In this document: one piece after another, positions 3,367 through 35,749 of the stretch | Numbering within the stretch: the stretch's first letter is position 1 | Layout: each line of letters opens with the position of its first letter | Virus record (IMG/VR): IMGVR_UViG_2627853794_000002 | Coordinates: 1 to 40,524 of that record | Source of the DNA: a virus | Lineage: Duplodnaviria; Heunggongvirae; Uroviricota; Caudoviricetes | Direction: 5' to 3' (one strand) | Length of the DNA: 40,524 nucleotides | Position numbers and translations under genes: made by a program | The notes under the pieces: model-generated | The model's database searches: none | Told to the model about the DNA's origin: nothing | The model's input: the letters and a program-made list of their open reading frames with translations, nothing else

Positions 3367-3786
3367 ATGGAGAAAACAATGAAATATTTTACATCTGCTC
3401 CGATTGCTCTTTATAACTCCGATATATCCTCTTATATACCCGGTGACGCAGTAGAAATCAGTGATGAAGTATATGACGCACTTATTGCTGGTCAGGAGGC
3501 AGGAAAGAATATTACGGCAGACAGTAACGGACTGCCTGTACTGGCAGAACCCGCACAACCAACTCATGATGAATTGGTTGCAGCATCTGAATTAATGAAA
3601 CAGCATCTGATTGATGCTGCTATGGCTTCCATCAGTCTGATTCAGCTGAAATTGCAGGCCGGACGTAAATTGACGCAGGCAGAAACAACCCGGCTTAACG
3701 CTGTGCTGGATTACATTGACGCAGTGACGGCAACAGATACCAGCACCGCGCCGGATGTCATCTGGCCTGAACTGCCGGAGGCGTAG
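3367..3786 (+). CDS. Tail fibre assembly protein (alternate-orientation copy, Tfa family)
   Basis: 139 aa; C-terminal ...APDVIWPELPEA typical of Tfa chaperones; follows silent fibre cassette. Confidence 0.7.
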   Translation: MEKTMKYFTSAPIALYNSDISSYIPGDAVEISDEVYDALIAGQEAGKNITADSNGLPVLAEPAQPTHDELVAASELMKQHLIDAAMASISLIQLKLQAGRKLTQAETTRLNAVLDYIDAVTATDTSTAPDVIWPELPEA

Positions 3787-4210
3787 GCCATTCAATATCT
3801 GGCGCACTGGAGGTATCAACCAGCTCCAGTGCATCCAGATAATCCAGCCACAAATTATATTGCGCCAGTTCCTCACCTTTCAGACGACCAATAGCGGCTT
3901 TACCGGGCCATTGCTTACTGTTCATGTATTCGTTGGCCTGGTTAATTAGTAGCTGTCTTTCTGATTCAGTAATTTCAATAAGCTCTTCATGCGTGGGTGG
4001 AGGAATATCTGCCCACGCAGGCAGCCCATCATCTCCGGCAATACGGATTTTTCCTTGTGGCGGTTCAGCCATAAACTCACTGATAATATTTTGATTTACT
4101 TCCTTAGCGTCTGATAAATCCCATCCCTCTGATTTATATTTATCAATCATATCCACAGGGAAAAAAGCATTATGCCTTGCGCTATAAACATATTCGTTCA
4201 TATAAATCAC
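3758..4210 (-). CDS. Tail fibre assembly protein (expressed-orientation copy, Tfa family)
   Basis: 150 aa; ...APDIEWPTPPAVQAR; immediately downstream of tail fibre gene. Confidence 0.75.
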   Translation of the reverse strand: MIYMNEYVYSARHNAFFPVDMIDKYKSEGWDLSDAKEVNQNIISEFMAEPPQGKIRIAGDDGLPAWADIPPPTHEELIEITESERQLLINQANEYMNSKQWPGKAAIGRLKGEELAQYNLWLDYLDALELVDTSSAPDIEWPTPPAVQAR

Positions 4211-4221
4211 CCTGAATAAAA

Positions 4222-4884
4222 TTACTCACCAACAGCCCACCAACTGTAATTCATCGATACCGTGTCGCTGGTTGATGACGTTCTGTAAGCAGAATTAAAG
4301 CCGGTTAACGTTGGGCCTTCTGCAGTCATCACGAACCCTCGCCCAGCGCCTAAAGGCGCACCGCCATCACCAGAATGAGTAAGCATGGCGCAGTCCGCTT
4401 TTTTGGGGAAAGGGATGCTGAATGTAATTCTCATTGTTTGCGTCGATAATGTCGGCGTAACCGCACCACGACCATATTGCAGGATTTTCCCGTTGGGTAA
4501 TTTCATCCACCCATCACCACTGGCAAAAGAGGCCATGTCCGGTATCTGATTTTCCCCTGTCCCCACATCCCGTTTTGCCGCTTCTCCCAAACCAAGGTTT
4601 TCGAGAGCCGTTTTCACCGTGCCATCCGATTTGATATCGCCAAACGGATTCTTGCGGCTTAACAGCAGCGCACGAAGCGCGGTAAGCAGCTGGTCGTGCC
4701 GCGCCTTCTCAAGACTGGCACCGGATGCCTCAACAACGCTACAAAGTTCTTCCTGCAACATGTCAAAGTAGTCATCATCCAGATCGGTGGCAGGCGTGCC
4801 AGTCTGGGGGTTACCACGGGTAAAACCGTTTTTACCCGCGCCGAACTTATCCTTCTGCGCGGTTTTCGTGTCTATACGATGCAT
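4222..4884 (-). CDS. Tail fibre protein (constant N-terminus outside, variable C-terminus inside the invertible segment)
   Basis: 220 aa; crossover site falls at codons 98-104 (GLGEAAK); followed by Tfa gene. Confidence 0.75.
4573..4593. repeat. Invertase crossover site, right copy (inside tail fibre CDS)
   Basis: ttttgccgcttctcccaaacc = reverse complement of left copy with one mismatch. Confidence 0.6.
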
Positions 4885-4887
4885 GGA

Positions 4888-5472
4888 TTACTCCGGATAT
4901 TTAAAAATTACGTAGGTATGCGACGGGCAGAGTTTGTTAAGCACACACTCGACAACGGTGTCGCCCCAGATACGCAGTGCGGAATCACAGGGATCGCCAC
5001 ATGTCATCCAGGTGGTGTTGGTGGTGGCTGGCATGTTGACCTGCCAGTAATACCGCCATTCCGGCGCATTCACCGCGTCAGTACAGGCCGATGAGCAGGT
5101 GAACGTGCTTTTGTCGTATCGCGTGATGGTGGCATCTGGTCTGCCCAGGGCAGCAAGCTGTGCAAGATAAAAATCCTCGTTGATGCCGCCCGCCAGGTTA
5201 ACCTTCGCATCCAGCCGTTGCTGACGCTGGCGAAGGGTCTGCGTTCCCGCCGGAATACATTCATCCGGCAGACCGCACAGACGCTCCCAGCGGTTTATCA
5301 GTTCAGTGGTGGTGCGCGGATCCAGCTCCCGCATCAGGGCATCCGCACGCTGATGAACACGGGTTAATGACGGTGCCGCACCGGCAATCGCCGGATCGCT
5401 GGCTGACCACGCCGGACCGGGCGGCAACAGTGCCGATAACAGGCGGATGTAATCATCGTTTGTCACGTCCAT
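4888..5472 (-). CDS. Baseplate/tail protein (YmfQ-like, Mu gp48-like)
   Basis: 194 aa; position between baseplate J-like gene and tail fibre; resembles e14 YmfQ as recalled. Confidence 0.55.
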
Positions 5473-28336: not shown

Positions 28337-28831
28337 TCATTTCCAATTGCAAGACTGTGAAATTTTTTCCACAACCTTATCAATCTCAGACAAGTCAAAC
28401 TCAACTACTTGCATAGTTGATCCATAAGGTTCAAACCCAAAAATAGCTTTTTTATGCTTAGCCAAGGTCTTTATAAATTGTATTGGTTGTGGAGCAAATG
28501 CAGAATCACCGCCTTCCCCACCTCCCCAAACACTCTTGACCGGCTTTCCGCCATCTAACCGCACTGTAATTCTTGGGTTGTCCGACCCCATATAATCATT
28601 GAATGATAAATAGGCATCTGTTTTGTTATCACTACAACGCAACACCAGTGAAGTTGCACGATCAGTACCTGCTTTGTTATATGAATCTGGTGATAAATTA
28701 AGAGCCACAAAGTCAGTCTGGTCAGTCATTTTATTTATCTCAGACTTTGTTATCCACGGCCCTAACTTCTCTACACCAGCATTTGCTGTAAACGAGGCAC
28801 TTATGACAAAGGCTAAAATAAATTTTCTCAT
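28337..28831 (-). CDS. Exported (signal-peptide) hypothetical protein
   Basis: 164 aa; N-terminal MRKFILAFVISASFTANA signal peptide; AT-rich; own terminator. Confidence 0.55.
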   Translation of the reverse strand: MRKFILAFVISASFTANAGVEKLGPWITKSEINKMTDQTDFVALNLSPDSYNKAGTDRATSLVLRCSDNKTDAYLSFNDYMGSDNPRITVRLDGGKPVKSVWGGGEGGDSAFAPQPIQFIKTLAKHKKAIFGFEPYGSTMQVVEFDLSEIDKVVEKISQSCNWK

Positions 28832-28977
28832 AACCCTATCTCCTTGGATTTAAAGAACTAAATATTATCAAGTCTCTTGCCACTAGAAAACCCACTTTAT
28901 TTCCAAACTCTGACGGCATTCCTGAAAATCCGCTTCATACTCACTTGCCCCGCCCTATCATCCTGAGTAGCTAACCG

Positions 28978-29151
28978 TTAAACAAACGTTCGCCAGACCT
29001 TACCATCAATGACCAGGATTCCTGCCCGCGCCATTTTTGCCGCAGCCTGATTTATGCTGGTTAATGTCATACCTGTTGTCGCAGCAACGTCCGGCGCACA
29101 GAAGCTCTTGTGCGTCTCCAGATAATGAATAATTGCCTCTTTGCCCGTCAT
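28978..29151 (-). CDS. ren: Ren-like protein, C-terminally truncated
   Basis: 57-aa ORF MTGKEAIIHYLETHKSFCAPDVAATTGMTLTSINQAAAKMARAGILVIDGKVWRTFV, resembles N-terminal ~55 aa of lambda Ren (96 aa) as recalled; ATGA overlap with P stop. Confidence 0.5.
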   Translation of the reverse strand: MTGKEAIIHYLETHKSFCAPDVAATTGMTLTSINQAAAKMARAGILVIDGKVWRTFV

Positions 29152-30865: not shown

Positions 30866-31407
30866 ATCGCCCCCAGCATGGTAGTAACCATCGCCATCAA
30901 TGGACCAGCCAGATCCGGGTCCACACGAAACATCGACACAATACCTTCACTCATTTCCTTCAGTTTCTGGTGGCGTGGTGCGTTGAGAATGACAGCCTGT
31001 TTTGCCTCACTGAGTTCCTTTTCCATTTCAGCCAACCTAGCCATGAAGCTATCCTGCTCAACCAGGTAACCGCGATATTCCAGCGGTAGTACCGCCAGAA
31101 TTGCCGGGGTCAGTTCACGCACGTTATTTCGGTATTTTTCAGAATCGAATTTGTTATCGAGGAAGCGGAACAGCTTCTGGCGTGCACGGCTGACATCATC
31201 AGGGAAATCGATGGTGCCGCCGCCCTGCTCCCGATACTCATTCACAATGAGTGCGGCAACAACATCCTGATTATCTGCAGCCGACCAGGCGCGAACGGCA
31301 TCACGGATTTTTTCGTGGCCTGGCGCCTGTTTTGTTTGAGAACGATTTATCACCGCAGTCGGGCTAAATCCGCTAGTCTGTTGGTATGTAAGTGGTTGCA
31401 TAGTCAT
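30862..31407 (-). CDS. YdaT-like protein (CII-analogue regulator of Rac-type immunity regions)
   Basis: 181 aa; motifs EYREQGGG and PAILAVLPLEYR resemble Rac YdaT as recalled; directly downstream of cro-like gene. Confidence 0.5.
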   Translation of the reverse strand: MTMQPLTYQQTSGFSPTAVINRSQTKQAPGHEKIRDAVRAWSAADNQDVVAALIVNEYREQGGGTIDFPDDVSRARQKLFRFLDNKFDSEKYRNNVRELTPAILAVLPLEYRGYLVEQDSFMARLAEMEKELSEAKQAVILNAPRHQKLKEMSEGIVSMFRVDPDLAGPLMAMVTTMLGAI

Positions 31408-31431
31408 TGCCTTATCAGTTAACGCCGCAGT

Positions 31432-31659
31432 TTAGGCGGCAGAATTACTCGCGTTAAACAATGGTGCGAGGTCGGGACGAATATCTGCTGGTTTAATCTT
31501 TCCACCAGTGGCTGAGACAATTTTCATTACATAGCGGGCATCAATTCCGCCACCGTGTAGCCAACGCCAAACTGTGGGTTGGGCTACACCGCATAGATCT
31601 GCCAGTCGTTTTTGACTACCTGTAATACTGATTGCGAGTTGAATGGTTTGATTTGTCAT
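31432..31659 (-). CDS. cro: Cro-like HTH repressor (YdaS-like)
   Basis: 75 aa from ATG 31659; HTH ...LADLCGVAQPTVWRWLHGGG; divergent from cI. Confidence 0.65.
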   Translation of the reverse strand: MTNQTIQLAISITGSQKRLADLCGVAQPTVWRWLHGGGIDARYVMKIVSATGGKIKPADIRPDLAPLFNASNSAA

Positions 31660-31690
31660 TATCAATTCCTATTGGTATTACAATGAATGA

Positions 31691-31719
31691 ATAATAGCAA
31701 TGCGTATTAATCCAAGCAA
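31691..31719 (-). promoter_or_regulatory. Candidate pR promoter (toward cro) overlapping operator repeats
   Basis: Minus strand TTGCTT - 17 nt - TATTAT; operator motif copies CAATAGCAA at 31690-31729. Confidence 0.45.
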
Positions 31720-31733
31720 TAGCAAAACGTGTT

Positions 31734-31760
31734 TTGACCATCAATACGCAAGCGTATAAA
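31734..31760 (+). promoter_or_regulatory. Candidate pRM promoter (toward cI; near-leaderless transcript)
   Basis: TTGACC - 15 nt - TATAAA, ~10 nt before cI ATG; spacer suboptimal. Confidence 0.3.
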
Positions 31761-31769
31761 TTAAAACTT

Positions 31770-32462
31770 ATGAAAAAAGAAACTCTTGCTGATCGCTTAA
31801 ACCTAGCGATGGAACAATCTGGAATGTCTCAAGGCGCTCTTGCAAAGGCGTCTGGCGTAGCTCAACCCACAATCTGGAGACTGACAAGCGGCAACGCGCG
31901 CGGCTCAACAAAAATTGTTGAAATAGCTAATGCATTGGGTGTTCGAACAGAATGGCTCTCATCAGGCATAGGCCCGATGAGAAATGACGGTCAACAATCA
32001 GGGAAGCCTGCTGTCAGCCATTCAAAATACTTCAAGATTGACGTTCTTGATATAGAAGTCAGTGCCGGACCGGGTGTCATCAACCGTGAGTTTGTGGAAG
32101 TTCTACGCTCGGTTGAGTACTCGTTTGACGATGCTCGTCACATGTTCGATGGCAGGAAGGCGGAAAATATCCGCATCATTAACGTGCGCGGTGACAGCAT
32201 GTCAGGAACGATCGAACCAGGTGATCTGCTGTTCGTTGATATCACTGTTAAATCTTTCGACGGTGATGGTATCTATGCGTTTCTGTACGACGACACAGCC
32301 CATGTAAAGCGTCTGCAAATGATGAAGGATAAGCTGCTGGTTATCTCTGATAACAAGAGCTACTCACCGTGGGACCCGATCGAGAAAGACGAGATGAACC
32401 GGGTGTTCATCTTCGGTAAGGTTATTGGGAGCATGCCGCAGACTTACCGAAAGCATGGTTAA
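31770..32462 (+). CDS. cI: CI-like prophage repressor (HTH plus S24 LexA-like autopeptidase domain)
   Basis: 230 aa from ATG 31770; N-terminal HTH (SQGALAKASGVAQPTIWRL), C-terminal ...VRGDSMSGTIEPGDLLFVD... and K in ...HVKRLQ. Confidence 0.85.
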   Translation: MKKETLADRLNLAMEQSGMSQGALAKASGVAQPTIWRLTSGNARGSTKIVEIANALGVRTEWLSSGIGPMRNDGQQSGKPAVSHSKYFKIDVLDIEVSAGPGVINREFVEVLRSVEYSFDDARHMFDGRKAENIRIINVRGDSMSGTIEPGDLLFVDITVKSFDGDGIYAFLYDDTAHVKRLQMMKDKLLVISDNKSYSPWDPIEKDEMNRVFIFGKVIGSMPQTYRKHG

Positions 32463-32693
32463 ACGACCTGCATTGCGGGTCACACCGCATATTTATAGCC
32501 AAAGCATACCTAGCAATGGACTGAATGCAGCTTACAAGATATCATTGTTTTTCAAAGAAAAGGGAACAATACCCTTTTGAAAAGCAGCAATCATTGTCAA
32601 CGGCACTAATAGTACGCAATGAGCAAAACTTAGCTGTTTAATAAGCATGCAAATAATGAAGGTATCATCATATTAACAATGTGTTGGTGAAGC

Positions 32694-33017
32694 ATGAACG
32701 ACAATAACAAGAATACTCGATCGCCAGAAGAGCATGAAGCTGTAGAAAAAGCGTTATCTGTTACACGAGCAGATATCGCGGAGTATTTTACTTCATTCGA
32801 AAAGCAGCATGGCGATATGTTGTGTCCGCTATGCAAAACATCTCTTTGGGCCATCACGCCTAGAATTGATAGTGATGAGCATGCAGCTATTATCACTTTA
32901 CCATTGCCTAATGCATCTGGCAGGGGGGTTTGGGCATATCCTATTATATGCTCTGGATGTGGCTATATAATTCATCTTTCTGCAAGTTTTGTCGTAGGCA
33001 AAATCAAAGGAGAATGA
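32694..33017 (+). CDS. Hypothetical protein A with CxxC...CxxC zinc-ribbon-like motif
   Basis: 107 aa; C44PLC47 and C86SGC89; RBS ggtga; AT-rich; stop overlaps next start (ATGA). Confidence 0.6.
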   Translation: MNDNNKNTRSPEEHEAVEKALSVTRADIAEYFTSFEKQHGDMLCPLCKTSLWAITPRIDSDEHAAIITLPLPNASGRGVWAYPIICSGCGYIIHLSASFVVGKIKGE

Positions 33018-33472
33018 AAGTGGCTACTGTTGCAATAGATGGTTATTCATTCATCACGGTTTCCGATAGTTGCATCTCTGACACAGCGCTTCCACCTATT
33101 GAAAATACTTATGGTGACAATATATACATACCCAAAATCGTTGAAACCATAGGTCCGGTTTATCGCCAAAAAGACTTAGATCACAGATACATACTTTACG
33201 CAGTGGCTGTATCATTAGTGCTCACTTTAAGTGTTGTTGTATGGTCTATAGGAGGTAGGTTTATGGTCTACATTCCATTATACGTTGCACTTGCACCTAT
33301 CGTTTATTGGTTACTGAAGATTTCCTATGCTTACTGCCTCGTAAAATGTGCTGGCTCCAGTCTCCTAGATGACTTTGATTCTCACCATATTGAGAACAAC
33401 AGGTTTGTAAAGCGTATTAATAGTATTTCATTCAGAGTAGTTGCTATAACAAAAAAACTTTTCTGGAGATAA
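33014..33472 (+). CDS. Hypothetical small membrane protein B (2 predicted TM helices)
   Basis: 152 aa from ATG 33014 with aaggag RBS; hydrophobic segments YILYAVAVSLVLTLSVVVWSIGG and FMVYIPLYVALAPIVYWLL. Confidence 0.6.
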   Translation: MKVATVAIDGYSFITVSDSCISDTALPPIENTYGDNIYIPKIVETIGPVYRQKDLDHRYILYAVAVSLVLTLSVVVWSIGGRFMVYIPLYVALAPIVYWLLKISYAYCLVKCAGSSLLDDFDSHHIENNRFVKRINSISFRVVAITKKLFWR

Positions 33473-33473
33473 G

Positions 33474-33896
33474 ATGGCAGAAGGGCGTCTAAAAACCGCG
33501 GGTAAAAACAGCCTGCCTTTTGCCATTACCAGTGTTCTTTGTGGTTACATTAACCACATGGTTCCTGAAATTTTTCCGGAAGGGGAAATGCGCCAATGGG
33601 CATATAGCACGATCCCAATGCTATCGCTGGTTTTACTGTACATTATTAGGACAATTAAAGATTTTGGAACTATGAGTCTGGCTCGTCTGGCTATTACTAT
33701 ATGTGCTACCCCAGAGAAAAAGCGCCTCAAACTCATAATGTCTGATAAGCATGTCAGTGAGGAAACAAAAGCTATAGCCGAGGCTCGTTATAATCAAATT
33801 ATTCAAAAAGAATTAGAAATAGGCTCCAATGCGGTTGATTATGTAGTAGGTATGCCAATTGTACATAATCAACCCAGACCAACAATTGATGAATAA
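33474..33896 (+). CDS. Hypothetical small membrane protein C (1-2 predicted TM helices)
   Basis: 140 aa; ggag RBS; start 2 nt after B stop; hydrophobic segment TIPMLSLVLLYIIRTI. Confidence 0.6.
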   Translation: MAEGRLKTAGKNSLPFAITSVLCGYINHMVPEIFPEGEMRQWAYSTIPMLSLVLLYIIRTIKDFGTMSLARLAITICATPEKKRLKLIMSDKHVSEETKAIAEARYNQIIQKELEIGSNAVDYVVGMPIVHNQPRPTIDE

Positions 33897-33906
33897 TTCG
33901 TAAAAA

Positions 33907-33934
33907 ACCCGGCCACCGTGCCGGGTTTTCTTTT
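33907..33934 (+). terminator. Intrinsic terminator closing the cI-A-B-C transcript (tIMM-like)
   Basis: Stem acccggc/gccgggt, 6-nt loop, then TTTTCTTTTG. Confidence 0.65.
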
Positions 33935-34057
33935 GCCTCCCCTCATCACACAAACCGTTCAAAAAACCACCACACCTCACTTCAGTTATCGCTATGCGAT
34001 GCAAGTCACAAAATTAATTCTTTTTGCTATCAAACATTTAATATCAAAACACATCAA

Positions 34058-34102
34058 CCAATAGCAATAAGTATTGATATCACCAATAGCAATAGCTATT
34101 AT
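34058..34102 (+). promoter_or_regulatory. Candidate pL promoter with oL operator repeats
   Basis: Two copies of ACCAATAGCAATA (34058, 34082) sharing CAATAGCAA with the cro-cI intergenic repeats; TTGATA - 17 nt - TATTAT at 34074-34102. Confidence 0.5.
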
Positions 34103-34175
34103 CACCATATCGCAACAACACAACGATACGGCAACCACCTGATTCACCGTTGCGATGACCGCTTAGATCCGCAGT

Positions 34176-34586
34176 TTGAATTTCAGCAGGCTTCGGGGAG
34201 TGCGAGGGGTGAAACGGACGCGTGAACGTCGGTGTGACCAGCTGAAATCAACACAACACTTTATACCTCAGTCGCTTCAACGAGGCGGCTTAGTTATGAC
34301 AACCGGCGGCCATCCACCGCCTGAATACGCGCAGAAGTCTCTATATGTTCAGCAGCCCAGCTTACGGGCAGGAGTTTTTATGGTTCATCAACATTACGGA
34401 ACGCAGACCGTTAATCGAGGTGCGGTCATGCCAGGAATGCTGGTCAAACACAAAGATGGTACCTGGACTGCATCAGCTAATTTACGCGGACGGCTTTATC
34501 TGCATCGCGGCATCGAGCGCACTTATACCCGTGATTTGCTCGTGGAAGTTTTTCTCGACGGACGCGGTAACGGCCTGAATCGCTAA
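34176..34586 (+). CDS. First gene of leftward early operon; possible N-like antiterminator or Kil-like protein, start uncertain
   Basis: ORF track start is TTG 34176; Arg-rich stretch [15 protein letters not shown] near N-terminus; first ATG with RBS at 34296 gives 96 aa; ends just before gam. Confidence 0.4.
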
Positions 34587-34661
34587 TCCCCTTTCCTGTT
34601 TTCCTAATCAGCCTGGCATTTCGCGGGCGATATTTTCACAGCCATTTTCAGGAGTTCAGCC

Positions 34662-34958
34662 ATGAACGCTTATTACATTCAGGATCGTCTTGAGGCTCAG
34701 AGCTGGGCGCGTTACTACCAGCAGATCGCCCGTGAAGAGAAAGAGGCAGAACTGGCAGACGACATGGAAAAAGGCCTGCCCCAGCACCTGTTTGAATCGC
34801 TATGCATCGATCATTTGCAACGCCACGGGGCCAGCAAAAAAGCCATTACCCGTGCGTTTGATGACGATGTTGAGTTTCAGGAGCGCATGGCAGAACACAT
34901 CCGGTACATGGTTGAAACCATTGCTCACCACCAGGTTGATATTGATTCAGAGGTATAA
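34662..34958 (+). CDS. gam: Gam (RecBCD inhibitor), short form
   Basis: 98 aa [28 protein letters not shown]...; near-identical to lambda GamS as recalled. Confidence 0.9.
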
Positions 34959-34963
34959 AACGG

Positions 34964-35749
34964 ATGAGTACAGCACTCGCAACGCTGGCTGGGAAGCTGG
35001 CTGAACGTGTCGGCATGGATTCTGTCGACCCACAGGAACTGATCACCACTCTTCGCCAGACGGCATTTAAAGGTGATGCCAGCGATGCGCAGTTCATCGC
35101 ATTGTTGATCGTCGCCAACCAGTACGGCCTTAATCCGTGGACGAAAGAAATTTACGCCTTCCCTGACAAGCAGAACGGCATCGTTCCGGTGGTGGGCGTT
35201 GATGGCTGGTCCCGCATCATCAATGAAAACCAGCAGTTTGATGGCATGGACTTTGAGCAGGACAATGAATCCTGCACATGCCGGATTTACCGCAAAGACC
35301 GCAATCATCCGATCTGCGTTACCGAGTGGATGGATGAATGCCGCCGCGAACCATTCAAAACCCGCGAAGGCAGAGAAATCACGGGGCCGTGGCAGTCGCA
35401 TCCCAAACGGATGTTACGGCATAAAGCCATGATTCAGTGTGCCCGTCTCGCCTTCGGATTTGCTGGTATCTATGACAAGGATGAAGCCGAGCGCATTGTC
35501 GAAAATACCGCATACACTGCAGAACGTCAGCCGGAACGCGACATCACTCCGGTTAACGATGAAACCATGCAGGAGATTAACACTCTGCTGATTGCCCTGG
35601 ACAAAACATGGGATGACGACTTATTGCCGCTCTGTTCCCAGATATTTCGCCGCGACATTCGCGCATCGTCAGAACTGACACAGGCCGAAGCAGTGAAAGC
35701 TCTTGGATTCCTGAAACAGAAAGCCACTGAGCAGAAGGTGGCAGCATGA
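34964..35749 (+). CDS. bet: Bet (Red-beta single-strand annealing protein)
   Basis: 261 aa [30 protein letters not shown]...; near-identical to lambda Bet as recalled. Confidence 0.95.

What the first reader, a model, noticed from the sequence alone, without database searches (positions are those of the whole stretch)
32694..33934. Unrecognised three-gene cassette in the rexAB slot of the immunity region: candidate lysogen-expressed exclusion or abortive-infection module
Seen: three tightly coupled ORFs (A 107 aa with C44xxC47...C86xxC89; B 152 aa and C 140 aa with strongly hydrophobic helices) sit directly downstream of the cI-like repressor on the same strand, with ATGA and TAA-N-ATG junctions, good RBSs, visibly lower GC than the phage backbone, and a strong intrinsic terminator (33907-33934) just before the oL/pL-like repeats. 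Established: in lambda this slot holds rexA-rexB, co-transcribed with cI in lysogens and acting as an abortive-infection system; the cI-to-pL interval is a known variable cargo site in lambdoid phages. Inference: this is a different, small membrane-associated module expressed in the lysogen. I do not recognise A, B or C as RexA, RexB, SieB or any characterised defence protein.
Basis: partly seen in the sequence, partly recalled or inferred. Interest (0 to 1): 0.85.

Follow-up and report, generated by a model that had tools for sequence, protein, structure and literature searches.

The report
Uncharacterised repressor-linked membrane cassette in prophage
A rare three-gene cassette (a small zinc-ribbon protein and two small membrane proteins) fills the exchangeable cargo slot just after the repressor gene of an E. 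coli lambda-like prophage. It belongs to a previously undescribed family that nearly always sits next to phage repressors, so it is a good but untested candidate for a new lysogen-expressed anti-phage system.

Summary
A (32694-33017, 107 aa, four Cys) and C (33474-33896) are as described. B most likely starts at GTG 33020 (150 aa), not ATG 33014. The terminator (33904-29), low GC and oL/pL are real.

The window is a thrW/proA lambdoid prophage (E. coli O157:H16 Santai). Homology with sister prophages stops at the cI stop codon and resumes at the terminator, so 32464-~33900 is swappable cargo. The same cI C-terminal domain occurs in 2209/5426 complete E. coli genomes; this cargo is in 5. Five of nine other cargos sampled match PADLOC defence candidates, including a SIR2 protein.

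A, B and C match no Pfam, NCBIfam, PADLOC or PDB family. All three genes recur in order in at least six diverged lineages (35-54% identity to the window), with pN well below pS.

A belongs to a small family (32 clusters among 1.84 billion proteins) with four invariant cysteines. It lay directly downstream of a repressor gene in 14 of 16 lineages. It is nearly always followed by a tightly coupled membrane protein, most sharing B's N-terminal "ΦENxxG" motif.

Best reading, inferred only: a lysogen-expressed, Rex-like exclusion module. Expression and phenotype are untested.

The parts
31770..32462 (+). cI-like repressor (HTH_3 plus Peptidase_S24). Its stop codon is the left boundary of the cargo slot.
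   Evidence: Pfam S24 E=1.3e-18 and HTH_3 E=1.8e-6; phrog_4 'transcriptional repressor' E=5e-69. Homology with sister prophages ends at 32461-32463.
32463..32693 (+). 231-bp cargo-specific leader. It contains a weak hairpin (32474-32489) and a promoter-like site (32517-32545). Whether it carries its own promoter is unknown.
   Evidence: The leader is not shared with sister prophages or with the Klebsiella version, whose spacer is 83 bp.
32694..33017 (+). Gene A: a 107-aa cytoplasmic Cys4 zinc-ribbon protein (C44, C47, C86, C89) with an N-terminal helix. It is the conserved hub of the family.
   Evidence: 32 representative clusters in 1.84e9 proteins, all 85-117 aa, with the four Cys invariant and P70 nearly so. 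Only weak, generic Zn-ribbon Pfam hits. phrog_4293 (unknown function) E=6e-5.
33020..33472 (+). Gene B: a 150-aa inner-membrane protein (152 aa if read from ATG 33014). It has an N-terminal ~55-aa domain with the motif P-I-E-N-x-x-G-D, a two-helix transmembrane hairpin (~58-80 and 84-110) and a basic C-terminal tail.
   Evidence: Hydropathy. Alignment A11: TM2 segment M-x-Y-I-P-L-Y-x-A-L-x-P nearly invariant. The N-terminal motif is shared with partners of distant A homologues. Start codon argument.
33474..33896 (+). Gene C: a 140-aa helical protein. Helices 1-2 probably form a membrane hairpin (about 14-31 and 43-60). Helices 3-4 form a cytoplasmic amphipathic domain. C is the most conserved of the three proteins.
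   Evidence: Alignment A12. AF2 model with pLDDT 70 and four helices: 2-33, 38-60, 66-90, 96-125. Hydropathy. No informative structural neighbours.
33904..33937 (+). Intrinsic terminator shared with sister prophages. It is the right boundary of the cargo slot and corresponds in position to lambda t_imm.
   Evidence: Homology with sister prophages resumes at 33896-33908. 578 E. coli genomes match this ~40-bp stretch, with other cargo genes annotated there in the listed rows. Every family member examined ends with a similar hairpin.
34060..34102 (+). oL/pL: operator half-sites AATAGCAAT at 34060 and 34085, and a promoter-like TTGATA-17-TATTAT at 34074-34102.

Best explanation
The cassette is horizontally exchanged cargo in the cI-to-pL slot of a lambdoid prophage. 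It is most likely transcribed in the lysogen, either by read-through from the repressor promoter or from a promoter in its own 231-bp leader, and it ends at the shared terminator before pL.

It encodes a small membrane-anchored complex:
- A is a cytoplasmic Cys4 zinc-ribbon protein.
- A docks on the cytoplasmic N-terminal 'PhiENxxG' domain of B, an inner-membrane hairpin protein.
- C is a second small membrane protein with a cytoplasmic helical domain, and it completes the effector.

The proposed function is exclusion of other phages in the Rex manner. A acts as the cytoplasmic sensor or gatekeeper. When an infection cue appears, B and C compromise the inner membrane, causing loss of membrane potential and growth arrest or death, which aborts the infection.

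Shown: the anatomy, the cargo boundaries, the coding status, the family, the link to repressors and the absence of any known family.

Inferred: expression in the lysogen, the A-B contact, the topology, the defence role and the membrane-depolarising mechanism.
For: 1. Exact cargo boundaries at the cI stop codon and the shared terminator.
2. The same cI C-terminal domain is in 2209/5426 E. coli genomes, but this cargo is in only 5.
3. Of nine alternative cargos sampled, five match PADLOC defence candidates: PDC-M66 (HipA-like kinase plus DUF3037), PDC-M63, PDC-S42, PDC-M11, and PDC-S25, a SIR2 protein with a ThsA-like region.
4. Established knowledge: lambda rexAB and BTP1 bstA occupy this slot, and the cI-N interval is a known mosaic hotspot (PMC8585504).
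5. A, B and C are conserved in order in six or more lineages at 35-54% identity to the window, with pN well below pS.
6. A-family genes sit directly downstream of a repressor gene on the same strand in 14 of 16 lineages, with gaps of 17-388 bp. The next gene starts within 13 nt of the A stop codon, overlapping it by 4 nt in six lineages.
7. In 14 of the 16 lineages that next gene encodes a membrane protein. Most of those partners carry the same N-terminal PhiENxxG motif as B (hhalign E=0.0012 over 16 columns; alignment).
8. Each module examined is followed by an intrinsic terminator.
9. Hydropathy and charge distribution place the N-terminal domain and basic tail of B, and the C-terminal domain of C, in the cytoplasm, where A is.
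Against: - There are no expression data. In this window a 231-bp leader with a weak hairpin right after cI (32474-32489) could stop read-through.
- No protein of the cassette matches any defence model. No structural neighbour is informative.
- 'Guilt by location' is weak evidence. The slot also holds cargos with no defence signature, such as a BamE-like lipoprotein.
- The PhiENxxG link between B and the distant partners rests on a short motif (hhalign probability 20%).
- A Yersinia phage pairs an A-like protein with two soluble proteins, so membrane damage is not a universal output of the family.
- Nothing distinguishes abortive infection from injection block or from a non-defence role.
Confidence: 0.4

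Rival explanations
1. It is a superinfection-exclusion complex. B and C, held or regulated by A, sit in the inner membrane and block genome injection of incoming phages without killing the cell, in the manner of P22 SieA, HK97 gp15 or T4 Imm.
For: - The proteins are small inner-membrane proteins expressed from a prophage immunity region.
- In distant relatives the partner of A is a single-pass protein. Its long coiled coil would face the periplasm if the N-terminal domain is cytoplasmic. There are weak Rz-like spanin hits, E about 0.003.
Against: - From my own knowledge, the Sie proteins named here act as single polypeptides and need no cytoplasmic zinc-ribbon partner.
- B and C in this window expose only very short periplasmic loops.
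- There is no homology to the SieA, SieB or Imm families.
Confidence: 0.2
2. It is a toxin-antitoxin-like stabilisation or addiction module. A is a zinc-ribbon antitoxin, and B and C are membrane toxins. The primary role would be retention of the prophage rather than phage defence.
For: - The operon is tightly coupled, with the small soluble protein first and hydrophobic proteins after it.
- Family members keep this order and coupling.
Against: - A has no DNA-binding HTH or RHH domain of the kind typical of type II antitoxins. There is no match to any TA family in Pfam, NCBIfam or PADLOC.
- The strict placement after repressor genes and before a shared terminator is typical of lysogeny-expressed cargo, not of free-standing TA loci.
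Confidence: 0.1
3. It is an accessory to the lysis-lysogeny switch, for example a membrane-tethered modulator of repressor activity or of induction, comparable to the RexA effect on the lambda switch. It would not be a defence system.
For: The A family is found directly after repressor genes in 14 of 16 lineages. RexA has such a secondary role (abstract of PMC11077077).
Against: - The adjacent repressors are of unrelated types: S24 cI-like and short ~124-131 aa non-S24 regulators.
- Identical cI proteins (WP_001295669.1) occur with entirely different cargos. The cassette is therefore dispensable for this switch.
Confidence: 0.1
4. It is some other lysogenic-conversion cargo that benefits the host, such as envelope stress tolerance, colonisation or bacteriocin-like competition, and has nothing to do with phages.
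For: - The slot also carries cargos with no defence signature, for example a BamE-like lipoprotein.
- The cassette has no recognisable domains.
Against: - The family is confined to prophages and phages. It is absent from 185,579 species-representative genomes.
- The cargo turns over rapidly alongside defence candidates.
Confidence: 0.1

Closest known systems
Lambda RexA/RexB
   Same: - Same genomic slot: directly after cI, same strand, closed by a terminator before oL/pL.
- A soluble cytoplasmic component plus small inner-membrane component(s).
- Cargo of lower GC than the phage backbone.
   Different: - No sequence similarity to RexA or RexB (no Pfam, PADLOC or NCBIfam hit).
- Three genes, not two.
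- The soluble part is a 107-aa Cys4 zinc ribbon, much smaller than RexA.
- B and C are predicted to have two transmembrane helices each.
- A 231-bp leader separates the cassette from cI.
BstA of Salmonella prophage BTP1
   Same: A lysogen-expressed defence gene family that is conserved directly downstream of prophage repressor genes and has its own terminator (PMC8585504). The A family shows the same positional conservation.
   Different: BstA is a single protein that localises to sites of phage DNA replication (abstract of PMC8585504). There is no homology to A, B or C, and BstA has no membrane components.
Mycobacteriophage prophage defences such as Butters gp30/gp31 (recalled from memory, not tested here)
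   Same: A repressor-proximal, lysogen-expressed pair of a cytoplasmic protein and a multi-pass membrane protein that excludes heterotypic phages.
   Different: Unrelated host and phage lineage.
phrog_4293 (phage protein family of unknown function)
   Same: A and its distant homologues match this profile (E=6e-5 for A, about 1e-7 for distant members). It is probably the same zinc-ribbon family.
   Different: The PHROG family carries no functional annotation. The match of the window protein covers only residues 81-106.

Membership tests
RexAB (lambda) | Sequence homology to RexA and RexB | tested here: not met
   No Pfam, NCBIfam or PADLOC hit for A, B or C at E<=1 other than generic zinc-ribbon noise and a chance Cas3 match.
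RexAB (lambda) | Located between cI and oL/pL, co-oriented with cI, and ended by a terminator | tested here: met
RexAB (lambda) | Co-transcription with cI in lysogens, and exclusion of superinfecting phage by membrane depolarisation | not testable with these tools
   Needs RNA-seq of a lysogen, plaque assays and membrane-potential measurements.
SieB, SieA or Imm-type superinfection exclusion | Homology to the known Sie families | tested here: not met
   No Pfam, PHROG or PADLOC hit.
BstA | Homology to BstA | tested here: not met
   No match to any PADLOC or Pfam model at E<=1, apart from one chance Cas3 match. All three proteins are 107-150 aa.
Type II toxin-antitoxin with a zinc-ribbon antitoxin (MqsA/YgiT-like) | Zinc-ribbon N-domain fused to an HTH DNA-binding domain, plus a recognisable toxin family | tested here: not met
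   A has no HTH. No Pfam or NCBIfam hit to YgiT/MqsA or to any toxin.
Holin/spanin lysis proteins | Match to holin or spanin families, and location in a lysis cassette | tested here: not met
   No PHROG or Pfam lysis-family hit for B or C. The location is the immunity region. Only distant single-pass partners give weak Rz-like hits, E about 0.003.
Cys4 zinc-ribbon proteins (generic fold class) | Two CxxC knuckles that are invariant across homologues | tested here: met
   C44, C47, C86 and C89 are invariant in 37 sequences. Sub-threshold hits are exclusively to zinc-ribbon Pfam families. Metal binding itself was not tested. The AF2 single-sequence model is poor (pLDDT 47.6).
phrog_4293 (unknown function) | Significant match to the profile | tested here: met
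   E=6e-5 for A (partial coverage). E=7e-8 to 3e-7 for four distant A homologues.
Known or candidate defence systems in PADLOC-DB v2 | Match of any component to a PADLOC model | tested here: not met
   Only chance-level Cas3 and Cas12a hits, E about 0.002.

The most novel reading that the evidence does not exclude
The A-type zinc-ribbon protein and its PhiENxxG membrane partner define a previously undescribed family of prophage immune modules that sit next to the repressor gene. The ABC form in this window is one subtype. The conserved zinc-ribbon hub senses superinfection, or reports the state of the resident prophage. It then triggers interchangeable effectors: a transmembrane hairpin plus C, a single-pass coiled-coil protein, or soluble proteins. 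This would be a new sensor-effector logic, functionally parallel to RexAB but built from unrelated parts.
Probability: 0.3. Interest if true: 0.7.

Novelty: new variant of a known kind. Interest (0 to 1): 0.55.

Why it matters
The cI-to-pL interval is the classic home of RexAB, whose mechanism remains poorly understood (PMC8585504). This work shows three things:
- In a very common E. coli prophage lineage the interval behaves as a precise cargo slot.
- Five of nine other cargos sampled there match candidate defence genes.
- One rare occupant belongs to a compact, uncharacterised family that lies directly after a phage repressor gene in 14 of 16 lineages examined.

If the cassette excludes phages, it would add a new, very small (about 1.2 kb) membrane-based defence system with a new type of zinc-ribbon component. 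It would also provide a simple experimental model for how lysogen-expressed membrane effectors are held in check and triggered.

If it does not exclude phages, the strict repressor linkage still points to an unknown aspect of lysogen biology.

Tried and rejected
Searches that found nothing useful:
- Pfam, PHROGs, PADLOC and NCBIfam scans of A, B and C gave no informative hit. Scanning all 37 A-family members gave only sub-threshold generic zinc-ribbon hits.
- PDB sequence and profile searches gave nothing. The best was RNase P Rpp21, E=0.37.
- The AF2 model of A from a single sequence was too poor to use (pLDDT 47.6).
- Rfam found no RNA family in 31000-35500.
- Folding the cI-A leader and the pL leader gave unremarkable z-scores of -1.7 and -1.0.
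- Two scans of 185,579 species-representative genomes, using the C and A patterns, found nothing.
- Megablast against 50,697 phage records found only the terminator.
- Literature and supplement searches for the protein accessions found nothing, and a search for 'GevA' returned nothing relevant among the listed titles.

Ideas rejected:
- That C corresponds to the coiled-coil half of the single-pass partners (hhalign E=0.19).
- The ATGA-overlap start for B.

Full report
**Observation.**
- The region holds three co-oriented ORFs downstream of a cI-like repressor (31770-32462; HTH_3 plus Peptidase_S24).
  - A is 32694-33017, 107 aa, with C44xxC47 and C86xxC89.
  - B can be read from ATG 33014 (152 aa).
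  - C is 33474-33896, 140 aa.
- The GGAGA ribosome-binding site ends at 33013. This leaves no spacer for ATG 33014 but 6 nt for GTG 33020.
- GTG 33020 is the start PGAP chose. It gives an N-terminus, MATVAID, that aligns with MAAVCLD of the homologues.
- I therefore place B at 33020-33472 (150 aa). The A/B junction becomes TGA-aa-GTG, the same stop-N2-start geometry seen in the Klebsiella copy. The B/C junction is TAA-g-ATG.
- GC content is 0.38-0.42 in the cassette against 0.49-0.54 in the flanks.
- An intrinsic terminator lies at 33904-33929. A pL-like promoter lies at 34074-34102.
- All three exact AATAGCAAT operator half-sites in the 40.5-kb window lie at oR (31693) or oL (34060, 34085).
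- B has two strong hydrophobic helices at about 58-80 and 84-110. C is only moderately hydrophobic.

**Origin and boundaries.**
- The stretch 32463-33940 is 100% identical to a prophage at tRNA-Thr/proA of E. coli O157:H16 strain Santai. All three genes are annotated there as hypothetical proteins.
- Only 5 of 5426 complete E. coli genomes carry the cassette. No record among 50,697 phage genomes matches it at the DNA level.
- By contrast, the C-terminal half of the cI gene is present in 2209 of the 5426 genomes.
- I aligned the window against nine sister prophages. Homology ends at the cI stop codon (32461-32463) and resumes at 33896-33908, the foot of the terminator, in seven of the nine. In the other two it resumes further downstream.
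- So 32464 to about 33900 is a discrete cargo cassette in a slot framed by the end of cI and a shared terminator. This is the architecture of lambda cI-rexA-rexB-t_imm.
- The cI-N interval is described as a mosaic hotspot that houses rexAB in lambda and bstA in BTP1 (PMC8585504, read).

**What else sits in the slot.** The nine alternative cargos are:
- a HipA-like kinase plus DUF3037;
- DUF6932 plus a 310-aa protein;
- a 313-aa protein;
- a 353-aa protein plus an ASCH protein;
- a 533-aa SIR2 protein;
- four cargos without annotation, or with only a BamE-like lipoprotein.

The first five match PADLOC candidate systems: PDC-M66, M63, S42, M11 and S25, the last with a ThsA-like SIR2 region. The other four match nothing. 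Identical cI proteins (WP_001295669.1) occur with different cargos. The cargo is therefore swapped independently of immunity specificity. This is positional evidence only that the slot is a defence hotspot.

**The proteins themselves.**
- A, B and C have no significant match in Pfam, NCBIfam or PADLOC, and none in PDB sequences.
- A has one partial hit to phrog_4293, a family of unknown function (E=6e-5).
- In a 5.8-billion-protein collection, A has one cluster, B four and C five.
- All three genes recur in the same order in the following:
  - a Klebsiella prophage (45%, 40% and 54% identity for A, B and C);
  - three further IMG/VR lineages;
  - Escherichia phage PHB10;
  - another enterobacterial lineage.
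- Synonymous sites are saturated (pS 0.6-0.86) while pN is 0.12-0.43 in every pairwise comparison of all three genes. All three are therefore real genes under purifying selection.
- The most conserved features are:
  - the four cysteines and the I-T-x-P-x-P...G-R-G-x-W-x-x-P segment of A;
  - the second membrane helix of B (M-x-Y-I-P-L-Y-x-A-L-x-P);
  - most of C.

**A wider family.**
- An exhaustive HMMER search with A against 1.84 billion representative proteins found 32 clusters. All are 85-117 aa, with four invariant cysteines and a nearly invariant proline.
- Members give only sub-threshold hits to generic zinc-ribbon Pfam families, and none to PADLOC models.
- I examined the genomic context of the A gene in 16 lineages: the window plus 15 others. 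In 14 of them it lies directly downstream of a repressor gene on the same strand, with gaps of 17 to 388 bp.
  - In one of the 14, a lipoprotein-like gene is interposed.
  - The repressors are S24 cI-like proteins or short HTH regulators of ~124-131 aa.
- The two exceptions are a borderline homologue after a lysis cassette in a contig of a 3.3-Mb bacterial genome, and a 1.3-kb contig too short to judge.
- The next gene starts within 13 nt of the stop codon of A. It overlaps the stop by 4 nt in six lineages.
- In the non-ABC members this gene usually encodes a 139-176 aa protein. It has an N-terminal soluble domain, one membrane helix and a long C-terminal coiled coil.
- These partners share with B a short N-terminal motif, Φ-(E/D/Q)-N-x-x-G, at the same position (hhalign E=0.0012 over 16 columns, probability 20%; alignment).
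- A Yersinia phage pairs an A-like protein with two soluble proteins.
- Each module examined ends with an intrinsic terminator.
- The family was not found in 185,579 species-representative genomes. This fits an accessory element borne by prophages.

**Structure.**
- The single-sequence AF2 model of A is unreliable (pLDDT 47.6).
- From hydropathy and charge, B is N-in and C-in with a tight periplasmic turn. C probably has an N-terminal membrane hairpin and a cytoplasmic C-terminal domain of about 80 aa. This topology is inferred, not shown.

**Mechanism.**
- The best-supported reading is that the cassette is lysogen-expressed cargo encoding a small inner-membrane complex. The complex is B and C with a cytoplasmic zinc-ribbon subunit A, docked on the N-terminal domain of B.
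- By position and by analogy with RexAB, I propose that it excludes other phages. A would act as sensor or gatekeeper, and B and C as the membrane-damaging effector (confidence about 0.4).
- Rival readings are an injection block (0.2), a toxin-antitoxin-like stabilisation module (0.1), an accessory of the lysis-lysogeny switch (0.1) and unrelated lysogenic conversion (0.1).
- None of these can be separated without experiments. In this window the 231-bp leader, with a weak hairpin at 32474-32489 and a promoter-like site at 32517-32545, leaves open whether transcription comes from pRM or from a promoter in the cassette.

**Comparison and novelty.**
- The cassette works like RexAB in genomic logic: same slot, same orientation, a soluble part plus membrane parts, and a terminator before pL. 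It fails the homology test for RexA/RexB, SieB, BstA, holins and spanins, known toxin-antitoxin families and every PADLOC model.
- It is not a member of any described system.
- It is a new variant of a known kind, namely cI-adjacent cargo of temperate phages expressed in the lysogen. It is built from an undescribed zinc-ribbon family and its membrane partners.
- Literature and supplement searches for the accessions found nothing.

Noticed in passing
window 33934-34380: No N-like gene lies between pL (34074-34102) and kil (34380-34586). The leader from about 34108 to 34300 is GC-rich. Rfam finds nothing there and the fold z-score is only -1.0. How this prophage achieves antitermination is unclear; an HK022-like RNA-based mechanism is one possibility, offered as a guess.
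   Followed up: partly
window 32040-32462 versus L003 7100-7591: The C-terminal S24 domain of cI is about 90% identical between the E. coli prophage and a Klebsiella prophage, while the N-terminal DNA-binding domains are unrelated. In E. coli the same C-terminal domain occurs in 2209/5426 genomes with several different N-terminal domains. This points to domain-level recombination of repressors.
   Followed up: partly
P0010 (ENA contig, 760 bp) versus window 33801-33896: A 78-aa protein has an unrelated N-terminus fused to the last 31 residues of C. It looks like a recombination scar inside C in another cargo.
   Followed up: no
P0005 (ENA contig) versus window 32832-32834: A near-identical copy of A carries C47F, which removes one zinc ligand. 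It could be a sequencing error or an inactivated allele.
   Followed up: no
L005-L013 (sister prophages, locus coordinates about 3424-5150): The same slot carries at least nine other cargos. They include a SIR2 protein (PDC-S25), a HipA-like kinase plus DUF3037 (PDC-M66), DUF6932 plus a partner (PDC-M63), a 353-aa protein plus ASCH (PDC-M11) and a 313-aa protein (PDC-S42). Four further cargos match no defence or Pfam family and would make a pool of additional candidates.
   Followed up: partly
L035 3405-4404 (Yersinia phage vB_YenM_30.14): An A-like zinc-ribbon protein directly after cI is followed by two overlapping genes for soluble proteins of 103 and 124 aa with no membrane segment, and then a terminator. 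The zinc-ribbon hub therefore pairs with non-membrane partners too.
   Followed up: partly
L029 3397-3969: In one lineage a 190-aa lipoprotein-like gene, with a weak DUF4156 match, is inserted between cI and the A-like gene.
   Followed up: no
window about 28337-29151 (L001 1875-2689): In the nin/ren region of this prophage, PGAP annotates a frameshifted ren pseudogene and a gene named 'type VI secretion system-associated protein TagO'. The second name looks odd for a lambdoid phage gene.
   Followed up: no
L034 1-1721 (Escherichia phage PHB10, MK524177): The record of this 'phage' includes host-like genes (a LysR regulator, an aldo/keto reductase and MdaB) next to the replication module. This suggests it is a prophage-derived or chimeric assembly.
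   Followed up: no
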